Below, piece after piece: positions 11,088 to 30,833 of a DNA stretch of 64,000 nt (the first letter of the stretch is position 1; every line of letters begins with the position of its first letter). The position numbers were made by a program, and so were the translations under genes. This DNA is from Octopus vulgaris. Its lineage: Eukaryota. Location: positions 45,818,001 through 45,882,000 of the forward strand of contig OX597831.1 of NCBI GenBank assembly GCA_951406725.2, given 5' to 3'. The notes beneath the pieces are model-generated. The model was not told where the DNA came from, did not search any database, and was given only the letters and a program-made list of their open reading frames with translations.

Positions 11088-11244
11088 ATGGAAACGCCCA
11101 AACAAGAAAACGAAGCATTCGCCGCCATATTATATGCCGAACCCGGTGCCCTCGGTTTGATTGCAAACATTATGGCAGCGACTGTGGTAGCTGTGGAGAA
11201 TATCCTCAATGAAAATGGTTCTCCTCCTGCTCTCATCCTTTCTG
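11088..11244 (+). CDS. Exon 1 of SatP-YrdC fusion (METPKQENEAFAAILYAEPGALGLIANIMAA...)
   Basis: ATG at 11088 after a polypyrimidine tract and AG (11079); YAEPGALGL resembles the AceTr signature ANPAPLGL; donor G|GTAAGT at 11245. Confidence 0.85.
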
Positions 11245-29200: not shown

Positions 29201-30833
29201 GGTTTAGTGGTTTGGGTGTTGGACTCATGATCATAAGATTGTGGTTTCAATTCCTGGACTGGGTGATACATATTCTTGAGCAAAGCACTTCATTTCACCT
29301 TGCTCCAGTTCATCAACTATTAAAAATGAGTAACCCTGCAACAGACCAACATCTTGCCTAAGGAGAAATATATACACCAGGGAAACCAGAAAACTAGCCC
29401 TATGCTCCTTAACTCACTTGGACCAGTGTCACAAAGACAAAAAAAAGCAACCACTACACTCCATAAAGGGGTTGGTGTTAGGAAGGCTATCCAGCTATAG
29501 AAATCATGCCAAAGCTGACATTGTGGTCTGATGCAGCTCTGCAGCTTGTTGGATATTGTCTAACTGTTCAACCCATGCTAGCACATAAAATATGTTAAAT
29601 GATGATCATCATCATCATCATTGTTCGACCGTGGTCGAGACAATGGAATTTACTATGTTACGCCAGACTTCACAGTCCATCATAGCATTACAGAGGTCCT
29701 GTTGCTGGATGCCTGTATCCCTGGAGATTACATCAGGGTAGGAGAGTGTGCGCCCTCTGGTATCGTGAGCAGATGGCTTCCAGCGGAGAAGAGTAGAAAT
29801 TACCTCGTTTTCAACTCTACAACAATGTCCAGCAAACTGGACTCTTCTACCTTTCACAAGAGATGATACAGGTTGTAGTTTCCCATATATTTATACTTAG
29901 GTTGGATGACGCTTCTACGAGAGATTTTGAGCTCTCATAAGGAGGCGAGTGTAAGTTCCATCCAACCGCCTCTCAAGCTTCTTTGATAACGTCCAGGTTT
30001 CTTAGCCATATAGTAGAATTGGTTCGACTGTAGCTGTGAAGATTTTAAGTTTGAAATCTCTACTTAGATTTGATGACCAGATCTTATGCATATCATTACA
30101 GGCTGACCTGGCCATACCCTTTCTAGTTAGAAAATCTTAGCTGTATGGTTAAGAAGTTTGCTCAAGTATGTGATTTTCAAGTTTGATTCCATTTTAGTAA
30201 CATCTTGTACAACCTCAGGTTGACCAATACCTTGAAATTTTGTAGATGAAAACTGTACAGAAGCCTATTACCTATCATATTTGCATGTGCATATACAAAT
30301 ACACACAGACACACGTGTGTGTGTGTGTCTGTGTGAGACTGTCTTTGCATGGACATTGCTTAACAGCAGTGACATTTATGCCACCCATGAACAATGTCTA
30401 GCAGCTTGGCAGATTGATGTTCTAAAACAAATAGAATAAAGTACCTTCTTTGGAAACAAGGGTTGGTATCAAGAAGAGGATCTGGCCATAGAAGTCTCAT
30501 CTAATCCACACAAGCAAAGAAAAAAGCAAATGTAAACACAATGATTGTGTCATCTTTGTAACCAAGGCAAATAACTCTACAATAGCAATATTATAAGGCT
30601 TGTTAGCTAAGGAAAATTAATGAAAAAATTATCTGCAATAATAGAATTGATATGAAAACTAGTAGCAAGTTGTTGATGAAAAATATCTTAAAAAGAGTGT
30701 TTATTTTTCAGGTGAAATTTCCTTCTTCAGAATTGGATGTGCACCACAAGACCATGTTGAAAATCTGTTTGAAGAAGCCAAGAAAGAAGTCAATTTTAAA
30801 CCACAAATTATTGTGGAAAAGAATCTCAACTGA
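11088..30833 (+). CDS. Spliced gene, about 870 aa: 3x SatP/YaaH/GPR1-FUN34-like membrane domains + C-terminal YrdC/Sua5 (threonylcarbamoyl-AMP synthase-like) domain
   Basis: Exons 11088-11244, 14514-15618, 15716-15993, 16135-16383, 17755-17843, 21806-22331, 24579-24665, 30712-30833. All introns are GT-AG with compatible phases (1,2,1,1,0,1,1); total 2613 nt = 871 codons, ending TGA with AATAAA at 30835. The exon 3/4 junction is the least certain. Confidence 0.85.
11691..11935. repeat. (GT)n microsatellites
   Basis: Directly visible. Confidence 0.95.
11939..12329 (+). mobile_element. Non-autonomous Helitron-like element
   Basis: A|TC start, CGCCGGGCG subterminal hairpin, CTGG|T end, no TSD; inverted relative at 42364-42803. 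Confidence 0.8.
12705..13344. mobile_element. mariner-like MITE with nested SINE (about 12762-13186, -)
   Basis: TA|CGAGGG...CCTGGCTTT and AAAGCCAGG...CCCTCG|TA termini. Confidence 0.7.
13778..14167 (+). mobile_element. Non-autonomous Helitron-like element
   Basis: A|TC...GAGCAACACCGGGCGATACTGCTAG|T; relative at about 50105-50636. Confidence 0.82.
14514..15618 (+). CDS. Exon 2 of SatP-YrdC fusion (rest of SatP-like repeat 1, all of repeat 2)
   Basis: Long open hydrophobic frame; GGFLQLLAGFMSYRRNDHLTGSAFIVFASLW parallels SatP [31 protein letters not shown]; second YAEPMGMGF motif; TAG acceptor and AG|GTTTGT donor. Confidence 0.92.
15716..15993 (+). CDS. Exon 3 of SatP-YrdC fusion (start of divergent repeat 3)
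   Basis: CTGACTAAC branch point plus TTTTCAG acceptor; open frame VVETLCFLGNSISCIC...YTFYWICWSIYLIN; donor GTACGT at 15994 (alternative GTATGT at 15998). Confidence 0.8.
16135..16383 (+). CDS. Exon 4 of SatP-YrdC fusion (TM helices of repeat 3)
   Basis: Hydrophobic open frame MIFMYFCYIIFVASLAF...NFVTALLA; strong donor CAG|GTAAGT; 5' boundary ambiguous (16116/16124/16135). Confidence 0.72.
17755..17843 (+). CDS. Exon 5 of SatP-YrdC fusion (GIVSLYGTFAGMTNGTLQGHLVPLGDPILK)
   Basis: Parallels the SatP C-terminus (GASAIYLAMGEVLNEQFGRTVLPIG); phase-compatible AG and GTAAGA; not in the ORF track. Confidence 0.82.
17983..18386. repeat. About 400-bp palindrome built from two inverted copies of the LTR end at 20100-20319
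   Basis: TGTAGCGTAGCT...AGCTACGCTACA; arms of about 185 bp, highly similar to 20130-20319. Confidence 0.88.
18387..18755. mobile_element. Right half of a related GATCC-ended MITE with TTAGGG-like tract
   Basis: Ends GGTCAAAAGGTAAAGATCC; subterminal similarity to 2760-2931. Confidence 0.6.
19250..20319 (-). mobile_element. Probable solo LTR
   Basis: TG...CA termini, 4-bp TSD CGTC (19246-19249 and 20320-20323), minus-strand TATAAAA (20082-20076) and AATAAA (19418-19413). Confidence 0.65.
21191..21595. mobile_element. Merlin-like MITE
   Basis: TIR GGATCTTTTCGGTTTGAACGGCAGTTTTT; TSD CTTATATT on both sides; partial copy at about 22895-23046. Confidence 0.9.
21806..22331 (+). CDS. Exon 6: YrdC/Sua5 domain core
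   Basis: GGIVGVPTDTVYALAA, IYTVKERPSEKPI (KxR), YPGKIS, CIRIPD, LSSANPSG (SxN): canonical YrdC/TsaC motifs. Confidence 0.93.
22383..22717. mobile_element. Older palindromic MITE (GG...CC)
   Basis: Imperfect TIR TTCGTTTTAACTCGA/TCGAGTCAAAACGAA, inner IR GGATATCTTCGTGACCTCCG, degenerate 8-bp TSD; related core at about 38730-38830. Confidence 0.65.
23179..23590 (+). mobile_element. tRNA-derived CORE-like SINE with internal microsatellite
   Basis: TGGCTGTGTGG box A, GGTTCAGTCCC box B, CTTGGGCAAGT CORE-like motif, (GTAAAAGA)n tail; copies near 3062(-), 10280, 12762(-), 17281, 25478, 41101, 43024, 47889, 59170. Confidence 0.88.
24579..24665 (+). CDS. Exon 7: YrdC domain (GHKIDGMICDGESRETAPSTVVNCLNISKG)
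   Basis: YrdC D-G...STVV motif; TACAG acceptor, AAG|GTAAGT donor, phase 1/1. Confidence 0.9.
28566..28786. mobile_element. piggyBac-like MITE
   Basis: TTAA|CCCTTTAG...CTAAAAGG|TTAA; inverted relative at about 35405-35890 interrupted by a SINE. Confidence 0.7.
29600..30130 (-). mobile_element. 3' fragment of RTE-like LINE with (ATG)n tail
   Basis: RVQFAGHCCR...LLRWKP...GRTLSYPDVI C-terminal motif; upstream TVEPILLYG-like frame. Confidence 0.75.
30712..30833 (+). CDS. Exon 8 (last): YrdC C-terminus (EISFFRIGCAPQDHVENLFEEAKK...LN*)
   Basis: TTTTTCAG acceptor; R-x-G motif of YrdC; TGA at 30831-30833 followed by AATAAA at 30835. Confidence 0.85.

What the first reader, a model, noticed from the sequence alone, without database searches (positions are those of the whole stretch)
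11088..30833. Animal gene fusing three SatP/YaaH-type carboxylate-channel domains to a YrdC/TsaC domain
Seen: eight phase-compatible exons give one ~870-aa frame, with about 625 aa of hydrophobic repeats followed by a complete YrdC fold. The membrane part joins YrdC through a phase-0 intron (17844-21805) with no stop. Established: the AceTr family (E. coli SatP/YaaH, yeast Ady2/Gpr1/Fun34) moves acetate, succinate and similar small anions and is characterised in bacteria, archaea and fungi. YrdC/TsaC/Sua5 makes threonylcarbamoyl-AMP from L-threonine, bicarbonate/CO2 and ATP for tRNA t6A and is normally soluble. Inference: this is a membrane-tethered channel-enzyme. The pore could feed bicarbonate or a carboxylate to an adenylating domain, or the YrdC domain could be an ATP/amino-acid/bicarbonate sensor that gates the channel. 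I know of no functional description of this architecture, although automated annotations of homologues may exist.
Basis: partly seen in the sequence, partly recalled or inferred. Interest (0 to 1): 0.92.

Follow-up and report, generated by a model that had tools for sequence, protein, structure and literature searches.

The report
Octopus triple carboxylate-channel–YrdC fusion gene
This octopus gene really does join three bacterial-type small-acid channel units to an intact ATP-using YrdC enzyme; the design is already in print from computer analysis, but its fish counterpart is strongly switched on by infection together with an itaconate-making gene, which hints at an unexplored antimicrobial metabolite pathway.

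Summary
Confirmed. Eight GT-AG exons give 853 aa: three SatP-like repeats, then YrdC. RNA-type contigs from two studies splice across the 17843/21806 junction. The architecture is not new: Ghasemi et al. (iScience 2026, PMC13316224) described it in silico, function unknown.

Added here: (1) The YrdC catalytic tetrad and threonine-binding residues are intact in 80 of 80 orthologues. (2) A second fused paralogue (B) exists in this genome and across molluscs and chordates, often as the next gene; it lacks the KxR arginine in 82 of 82. (3) SatP's F17 gate is Asn/Asp. (4) A separate canonical YRDC exists. (5) In a published zebrafish infection dataset the orthologue is induced about 66-fold with irg1l, B and a PhyH dioxygenase, while yrdc and osgep are not; a preprint reports YrdC genes beside IRG1L/pIRG1.

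Best reading (0.45): an infection-induced channel-enzyme of an itaconate-linked small-molecule pathway, probably an A/B ring, not a tRNA enzyme. No activity has been measured, and in this genome the gene is unlinked from pIRG1.

The parts
11088..11244 (+). Coding exon 1 (ATG; aa 1-52; TM1 of repeat 1, EPGALGL = SatP NPAPLGL position). An acceptor-like AG at 11078-79 suggests a further 5' non-coding exon.
   Evidence: matches the N-terminus of Argonauta P0003; contig X1 has 253 nt before exon 2
14514..15618 (+). Exon 2 (aa 53-420): rest of SatP-like repeat 1 (to ~14956) and all of repeat 2 (~15014-15565)
   Evidence: 237 homologues
15716..15993 (+). Exon 3 (aa 421-513): first half of repeat 3
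16186..16383 (+). Exon 4 (aa 514-579): repeat 3, TM4-5
17755..17843 (+). Exon 5 (aa 580-609): last TM of repeat 3 and the LVPLG end (SatP VLPIG)
   Evidence: 91-nt gap in two spliced contigs; profile match
17844..21805 (+). Phase-0 intron joining the membrane part to YrdC
   Evidence: GT..AG; absent from contigs X1 rec 1 and X4 rec 14, present in X16
21806..22331 (+). Exon 6 (aa 610-784): linker and YrdC core; PTDT, K672-x-R674 (21992-22000), K678, R744, S764-S765-x-N767 (22268-22279)
   Evidence: PF01300 E 9e-27; motif table
24579..24665 (+). Exon 7 (aa 785-813): YrdC, S803-T804
30712..30833 (+). Exon 8 (aa 814-853, TGA): YrdC R820-x-G822 and C-terminal helix

Best explanation
The gene (clade A, orthologue of fish si:ch211-153b23.3) encodes an 18-helix membrane protein of three SatP-type pores with a cytoplasmic, catalytically intact YrdC. 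It is probably not the cell's tRNA t6A enzyme. It most likely belongs to an old infection-induced small-molecule pathway that also includes IRG1L/pIRG1 (itaconate synthesis) and a PhyH-type dioxygenase. Shown here: the fold, the intact active-site residues, the Phe-to-Asn/Asp change at the pore gate, the paralogue B, and a separate canonical YRDC. Shown in papers: co-induction in zebrafish, and YrdC-domain genes beside pIRG1/IRG1L. Inferred: (i) A and B, three repeats each, assemble into one SatP-like six-pore ring, A supplying the active YrdC and B a weakened or regulatory one; (ii) the widened polar pores pass a dicarboxylate such as itaconate, or a derived product, out of the cell; (iii) YrdC uses ATP, CO2/bicarbonate and a threonine-like amino acid to make a carbamoyl-adenylate used for a small molecule rather than for tRNA.
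For: KxR/SxN tetrad 80/80, T649 78/80 (S in 2), S803 80/80, R820 79/80 in clade A; these are the residues reported as required for TC-AMP synthesis (PMC10321239, passages). YrdC is the best conserved part (59% mollusc-vertebrate identity). A canonical-type YRDC lies at C21, outside the fused clade. Zebrafish infection table (PMC6980646 suppl. file 8), log2FC: 153b23.3 6.04 (4th row of 23,516; padj 2.6e-13), irg1l 5.81, zgc:174917 5.68 (called PhyH-like in the paper's legend), 153b23.4 4.05, 153b23.5 3.08; yrdc 0.27, osgep -0.31 and osgepl1 -0.65 not significant. 153b23.3, 153b23.5 and irg1l are hubs of one co-expression module (PMC11140123). irg1l, 153b23.4 and 153b23.5 are among the top 5 up in a third study (PMC9228135). 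Preprint 10.1101/2022.06.17.496652 (passages): VOC, YrdC, 2Fe(II)-oxygenase and GAT domain genes are syntenic to both pIRG1 and IRG1L; pIRG1 is in molluscs, amphioxus and lamprey; IRG1L is lost in therians. The fused genes show the same range: the 111 named A rows (of 120 listed, 237 found) are 24 molluscs, 3 amphioxus and 84 vertebrates; the 107 named B rows (of 114) are 20 molluscs and 87 vertebrates; platypus is the only mammal in either list. In this genome pIRG1 sits head-to-head about 24 kb from a PhyH gene on C23. SatP F17 maps to N 79/80, D/N 72/80 and N/S 80/80 in A repeats 1-3, while Q50 and W76 are largely kept; yeast Ato1 F98A, by my alignment the F17 position, gains succinate transport (PMC8379382, passages). 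A/B pairing: of 20 species with both genes listed (read by eye), 8 have consecutive locus tags and 19 of 19 with a recorded length share it. Repeats match in register, and conservation is complementary (A: R1 43%, R3 19%; B: R1 20%, R3 32%). B also folds with 18 membrane helices.
Against: No transport, enzyme or binding activity has been measured for any member. In this genome A (C18:45.83 Mb) and B (C18:55.75 Mb) are 9.9 Mb apart and pIRG1 is on C23. No GATase, DJ-1 or glyoxalase hit lies near A, B or pIRG1 (exon-wise searches, lower bounds). All expression data are from zebrafish, and neighbours can be co-induced by shared enhancers without sharing a pathway. 153b23.7 was not significantly induced (1.50, padj 0.2). 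The IRG1 preprint's authors saw no obvious functional clustering, and I could not see its Fig. 2, so that its 'YrdC' neighbour is this family is inferred. The zebrafish proteins were not retrieved; orthology rests on source names of other fish (P0088, P0093, P0111, P0199). The kept threonine pocket argues against itaconate as the YrdC substrate. Relatives from unnamed marine and environmental sets carry the same fusion plus a GAF-like tail, so the design may be older than animal IRG1 and built for sensing. B has Arg at the K56 position in 81/82, which might compensate for the lost Arg. Pecten-type neighbours are inferred from tags, not coordinates; Discoglossus and Pinctada tags are far apart.
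Confidence: 0.45

Rival explanations
1. Ligand-gated small-anion channel: YrdC binds ATP, threonine and bicarbonate (or turns them over slowly) mainly to gate the pores; B is a pseudo-enzyme regulatory subunit. The cargo may still be a carboxylate.
For: B keeps 57% mollusc-vertebrate identity in YrdC although the KxR Arg is absent in 82/82, so a non-catalytic role is under selection. Non-animal relatives add a GAF-like sensor domain (0.97 feature score). No Kae1/OSGEP partner is co-induced.
Against: A keeps every catalytic residue tested in 78-80 of 80, and stand-alone copies derived from A exist in a snail (P0149, P0171, P0223).
Confidence: 0.2
2. The link to IRG1L is only positional (old linkage and shared inflammatory enhancers); the A/B proteins do a different job, for example moving acetate/lactate, ammonia or another small polar solute in epithelia.
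For: Unlinked from pIRG1 in this genome. Repeat 1 has invariant His and Glu at SatP G42 and L138 positions and the NPAPLGL Asn is Glu, a more acidic pore than SatP's. The fusion exists outside animals.
Against: Matching phyletic range with pIRG1/IRG1L including absence from therian rows; co-induction in three independent zebrafish datasets; pIRG1-PhyH still adjacent here.
Confidence: 0.2
3. Membrane-anchored TC-AMP synthase for tRNA t6A: the pores feed bicarbonate (or threonine) to YrdC to boost t6A during stress.
For: Fold and active site match Sua5/TsaC (Z 27.2, rmsd 1.9 A to 6f89); t6A is bicarbonate-limited in mitochondria (PMC9654439, passage).
Against: A canonical YRDC exists separately; yrdc, osgep and osgepl1 are not induced when A is induced about 66-fold; no therian or arthropod row is among the named hits although t6A is universal.
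Confidence: 0.12
4. Annotation artefact: two separate genes or read-through.
For: Some annotations split off the YrdC part (e.g. P0121, P0127, P0134).
Against: Spliced contigs in two studies; 118 of 120 listed homologues of the membrane exon carry PF01300; seven full-length fusions are called on 2.8-3.5 kb Logan contigs. The split entries I looked at begin inside repeat 3 or the linker.
Confidence: 0.02

Closest known systems
'Vertebrate Ato' triple Gpr1/Fun34/YaaH + Sua5/YciO/YrdC family (Ghasemi et al., iScience 2026, PMC13316224; bioRxiv 10.1101/2025.05.26.656167)
   Same: Three six-helix repeats plus C-terminal YrdC, about 900 aa, two clades; dimer-ring and coupled import-chemistry ideas already proposed there (sections 14, 15 read).
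   Different: That paper calls the family vertebrate, absent from mammals, with a few protostome members possibly by HGT. Here both clades are broad in molluscs and present in amphioxus and platypus; each clade has molluscs as one group (99 SH-aLRT, quick tree). In the sections I read it does not report the KxR difference, the gene pairing, the gate change or the IRG1L link; I could not see its figures or supplements.
AceTr family (TC 2.A.96): E. coli/Citrobacter SatP (5zug, 5ys3), yeast Ato1/Ady2
   Same: Six-helix fold (Z 21, rmsd ~3 A for model residues 13-199), Q50 and W76 equivalents, terminal P-x-G; profile hit E 1e-10.
   Different: Three repeats in one chain; NPAPLGL becomes EPGALGL / EPMGMGF / ETLCFLG; F of the FLY gate is Asn/Asp; fused enzyme.
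TsaC/Sua5/YRDC threonylcarbamoyl-AMP synthases
   Same: Fold, KxR/SxN tetrad, Thr-binding T/S/R, TsaC-type S/T signature, no SUA5 domain.
   Different: Membrane-anchored; forms its own clade apart from this genome's canonical YRDC; paralogue B lacks the Arg; infection-induced in fish.
YrdC-like domains of HypF and TobZ (carbamoyl-adenylate for non-tRNA targets)
   Same: Precedent for YrdC chemistry serving a protein or small-molecule target (PMC9654439; Z 11-19).
   Different: No Kae1-like transferase domain is fused; sequence is closer to TsaC/Sua5.
pIRG1/IRG1L neighbourhood (VOC, YrdC, 2Fe(II)-oxygenase, GAT; bioRxiv 10.1101/2022.06.17.496652)
   Same: Reported YrdC-domain neighbour; same phyletic range; pIRG1-PhyH pair kept in this genome.
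   Different: The authors drew no functional link; in this octopus A and B have moved to another chromosome.

Membership tests
Triple-Ato + YrdC family (PMC13316224) | Three tandem six-helix Gpr1/Fun34/YaaH domains | tested here: met
   Profiles R1-R3 each match SatP above 1000 shuffles and tile the window protein; 18 membrane helices in the model of the Patella orthologue P0007. The window protein itself was not folded.
Triple-Ato + YrdC family (PMC13316224) | C-terminal Sua5/YciO/YrdC domain in the same chain, about 900 aa | tested here: met
   853 aa, spliced junction
AceTr/SatP (canonical) | Homology and six-helix fold | tested here: met
   PDB profile hit E 1.3e-10; Foldseek TM 0.78 by target; VIA Z 21. 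PF01184 not hit on octopus sequences; 25.3 bits (cut-off 25) on P0007.
AceTr/SatP (canonical) | NPAPLGL(M/S) signature | tested here: not met
   N8 is E in R1 (79/80) and R2 (80/80); motif lost in R3
AceTr/SatP (canonical) | FLY hydrophobic constriction (F17, Y72, L131) | tested here: not met
   F17 is N/D/S in all three A repeats; Y72 is F/Y, H/Y, Y/L; the L131 column is less surely aligned
AceTr/SatP (canonical) | Q50 and W76 pore residues | tested here: met
   W 80/80, 80/80, 78/80; Q 80/80, 65/80, 60/80 in R1-R3
AceTr/SatP (canonical) | Six-pore ring and carboxylate transport | not testable with these tools
   Needs a structure and flux assays
TsaC/Sua5/YRDC | KxR/SxN tetrad | tested here: met
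   K672, R674, S765, N767; 80/80 in clade A. Not met by paralogue B (no Arg in 82/82).
TsaC/Sua5/YRDC | Threonine-binding T/S/R and TsaC signature T/S138 | tested here: met
   T649, S803, R820, S764 (residues as listed in PMC10321239)
TsaC/Sua5/YRDC | Makes TC-AMP for tRNA t6A | not testable with these tools
   No assay possible; a separate canonical YRDC argues against this role
pIRG1/IRG1L gene neighbourhood | Physical linkage to pIRG1 in this genome | tested here: not met
   A and B on C18, pIRG1 and PhyH on C23
pIRG1/IRG1L gene neighbourhood | Co-induction with IRG1L/pIRG1 | tested here: inconclusive
   Seen in published zebrafish tables; no octopus expression test was possible

The most novel reading that the evidence does not exclude
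Molluscs and non-therian chordates share an ancient, infection-induced biosynthetic gene set (pIRG1/IRG1L, a PhyH dioxygenase, GAT and VOC enzymes, and the A/B pair) that makes an undescribed antimicrobial small molecule. A and B form a heterodimeric six-pore ring in which A's YrdC makes a carbamoyl- or acyl-adenylate at the membrane and the Asn-gated pores export the product. It would be a tRNA-modification enzyme repurposed for animal secondary metabolism, lost with IRG1L in marsupials and placentals.
Probability: 0.25. Interest if true: 0.92.

Novelty: new member of a known kind. Interest (0 to 1): 0.6.

Why it matters
The fusion itself is in print, but nobody has assigned it a function in the papers my searches reached. 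The context found here turns an orphan architecture into a testable question. One of the most infection-induced genes of zebrafish is a channel-enzyme that travels with IRG1L in phylogeny, expression and reported gene order. If right, fish, amphibians, reptiles, birds, platypus and molluscs have an itaconate exporter or a further immune metabolite that mice and humans lost. That bears on aquaculture and poultry immunity and on how far zebrafish immunometabolism models mammals. It also revises the 'vertebrate, non-mammalian, HGT into protostomes' picture.

Tried and rejected
Complex prediction (Patella A residues 14-604 with B residues 192-588, cut to fit 1000 residues; the tool did not use my alignments) returned 'no answer', score 0.03, controls not folded; it is not used either way. 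The look-up of sequencing runs: no RNA holder listed on record; RNA status of X1, X4 and X9 is the tool's guess. Pfam PF01184 on single exons and on octopus P0001/P0338: no hit. Own-genome PF01184 search: one hit, L012, is low-complexity sequence, rejected. Own-genome search with exon 2 found only itself and missed paralogue B, which was found through YrdC. Searches for GAT/VOC cluster partners (PF00117, PF01965, PF00903, PF13669): none near A, B or pIRG1; the identity of the zebrafish GAT and VOC genes was not established. Pfam scan of 66 of 119 filtered ORFs around pIRG1 found only PrpD, PhyH, EGF and TSP1 pieces. Scan of 19 other window ORFs found only transposon pieces. B repeats 1 and 2 do not beat SatP shuffles directly (-3.4 vs 7.3; 8.0 vs 7.4 bits); their identity rests on profile-profile matches to A repeats and the fold. 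UreI/AmiS channels were not among the 50 fold rows shown; not excluded. The careful tree did not finish; the quick tree was used, and test_one_clade for HGT was not run. Whole-protein atlas search of P0209 gave only leads at 0.77. The search of earlier findings: nothing by sequence or words. Literature searches with no functional study of this family: (open-access library only; bioRxiv supplements and all figures unseen). Papers PMC11489432 and PMC7083608 were seen as listings only; PMC8877790 and 10.1101/2024.09.16.613370 as passages adding little.
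Full report
Observation. The window is octopus-like DNA from a 2.8-Gb genome (C18:45,818,001-45,882,000); the protein is 97% identical over 764 residues to an Octopus bimaculoides-type entry. 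Eight GT-AG exons give 853 aa with 609 aa before the phase-0 intron 17844-21805. Laid on 14450-22400, one contig in each of runs X1 and X4 (two studies, RNA by the tool's guess) carries exons 2, 3, 4 and 6 in order with a 91-nt gap that fits exon 5; X9 is fragmented; the DNA-like run X16 keeps the introns. Exons 1, 7 and 8 rest on homologues. The fusion is real.

What the parts are. Pfam finds YrdC on exon 6 but no PF01184 on any exon. A profile of 80 orthologues (A1) hits SatP structures at E 1e-10 and Sua5/TsaC at 1e-24. Split into repeats, each profile scores E. coli SatP well above the best of 1000 shuffles. The AlphaFold2 model of the Patella orthologue P0007 (pLDDT 84.8) has 18 membrane helices and a YrdC domain, matching Sua5 at Z 27.2 and SatP at Z 21. 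The window's own joined protein was not folded.

Prior description. Ghasemi et al. (PMC13316224: abstract and sections 8, 14, 15 read; preprint passages) report this family: three six-helix domains, C-terminal Sua5/YciO/YrdC, two clades, a dimer-ring hypothesis, function unknown, in silico only. I did not see its figures or supplements.

Range and paralogues. The membrane exon finds 237 longer proteins; of the 120 listed, 118 carry PF01300, 86 PF01184 and 84 both (counted by eye). Named rows are molluscs, amphioxus and vertebrates including platypus; none is therian, arthropod or cnidarian, but 117 hits were not listed. This genome has three YrdC genes: a canonical-type YRDC on C21, the window gene (A), and a second full fusion (B) at C18:55.74-55.76 Mb (92-100% identical exon by exon to O. 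sinensis P0338). B carries the source name si:ch211-153b23.4 and A si:ch211-153b23.3. Of 20 species with both listed, 8 have consecutive locus tags (Astyanax, Prochilodus, Phrynocephalus, Nucella, Babylonia, Mizuhopecten, Pecten, Saccostrea) and 19 of 19 with a recorded contig length share it; tags are a proxy, not coordinates. A quick IQ-TREE of 114 YrdC domains (careful run unfinished) gives A and B at 99 each, both with molluscs, amphioxus and vertebrates; the fused family with some environmental relatives is one clade at 99, apart from canonical YRDC and prokaryote TsaC/Sua5, though the YRDC branch is long. This fits a duplication before the mollusc-chordate split better than scattered HGT, but no formal test was run. 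Relatives from a marine-microeukaryote transcript set and metagenomes (P0209, P0332, P0335, P0221, P0231) have the same repeats and, where complete, an intact YrdC; the tail of P0209 is GAF-like.

Active site and pores. In A the KxR/SxN tetrad is present in 80 of 80 and the threonine-binding T, S and R in 78-80 of 80; in B the KxR arginine is absent in 82 of 82 (Q 57, L 10, H 5, others 10) while K56 is Arg in 81. PMC10321239 (passages) lists these residues as required. In the pores Q50 and W76 are largely kept, but NPAPLGL is altered and F17 is Asn/Asp. In yeast Ato1, F98A gives succinate transport (PMC8379382, passages). Conservation is complementary: A repeat 1 and B repeat 3 are the constrained ones, and these would be neighbours in an A/B ring. 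That is inference. B also models with 18 helices.

Context. In the zebrafish Shigella dataset (PMC6980646, legend passage and supplement file 8) 153b23.3 is the fourth row (log2FC 6.04), with irg1l 5.81, the PhyH-like zgc:174917 5.68, 153b23.4 4.05 and 153b23.5 3.08; 153b23.7, yrdc, osgep and osgepl1 are not significant. Two other studies group these genes with irg1l (passages). A preprint on IRG1 evolution (passages) reports VOC, YrdC, 2Fe(II)-oxygenase and GAT genes syntenic to both pIRG1 and IRG1L, pIRG1 in molluscs, amphioxus and lamprey, and loss of IRG1L in therians; its authors saw no obvious functional clustering. In this genome pIRG1 (C23:10,012,479-10,018,118, minus) faces a PhyH gene 24 kb away, one of three PhyH loci found. 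Against the link: A and B are on C18, 9.9 Mb apart, and no GAT or VOC hit lies near them or near pIRG1.

Mechanism. Most likely (0.45) A is an infection-induced channel-enzyme of an itaconate-linked pathway: an A/B six-pore ring with Asn-gated pores exports a dicarboxylate or derived product, and A's YrdC makes a carbamoyl-adenylate for a small molecule, as YrdC-like domains of HypF and TobZ do for non-tRNA targets. The anatomy and context are shown; assembly, cargo and chemistry are inferred. Rivals: YrdC as a gating sensor (0.2); mere linkage with an unrelated cargo (0.2); membrane-bound t6A supply (0.12); artefact (0.02).

Verdict. A new member of a described but uncharacterised family. It should not be filed as a canonical AceTr (signature and FLY gate not met), though it probably works like one. 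Searches found no functional study and no paper joining the two observations (architecture; IRG1L neighbourhood); closed-access papers were not searched. Interest 0.6: the fusion is known, but the pathway hypothesis is specific and testable in zebrafish.

Noticed in passing
G000:C18:55,740,888-55,756,537 (L005-L007): Second full triple-repeat + YrdC fusion gene (paralogue B) with a 567-codon membrane exon, KxR Arg lost and a long acidic disordered tail.
   Followed up: yes
G000:C23:10,012,479-10,046,813 (L023, L026): pIRG1/ACOD1-like gene head-to-head about 24 kb from a PhyH-type dioxygenase; an EGF/TSP1 gene follows.
   Followed up: partly
G000:C21:23,816,369-23,817,758 (L010): Canonical-type YRDC exons with intact KxR and SxN.
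   Followed up: partly
P0209, P0211/P0332, P0220/P0335, P0221, P0231: Fusions from marine-microeukaryote and metagenome sets with SatP-like repeats and intact YrdC; the C-terminal tail of P0209 is GAF-like and the others look similar. Not mentioned in the sections of the published paper that I read.
   Followed up: partly
P0242 (Pyxicephalus), P0279: A further B-derived copy whose YrdC motifs are all eroded while the membrane part is kept.
   Followed up: no
P0149, P0171, P0223 (Physella): Stand-alone YrdC copies nested in clade A with altered KP positions; may be real or gene-model fragments.
   Followed up: no
P0050, P0361: Platypus has both A and B, against the published 'except mammals'.
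   Followed up: partly
P0001, P0002, P0003, P0121: Public cephalopod models have a wrong first exon, skip most of exon 3, or split off YrdC; spliced contigs support the full exon 3.
   Followed up: partly
window 60673-63604 (+): Decayed LINE retrotransposon with endonuclease and reverse-transcriptase Pfam hits in several frames.
   Followed up: partly
window 54555-54952 (-), 31943-32242 (-), 45941-46558, 4507-5035 (-): DNA-transposon remnants; HTH hits for the first, the others Tc1/mariner- or pogo-like by recall only.
   Followed up: no
window 52311-52583 (-): 91-aa open frame that reads like a real exon; no Pfam hit.
   Followed up: partly
window 17376-17641, 18009-18400, 20120-20330, 21100-21631: Very high-copy short repeats in the introns (read depth up to 2 million in X16), including inverted copies in intron 5.
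   Followed up: no
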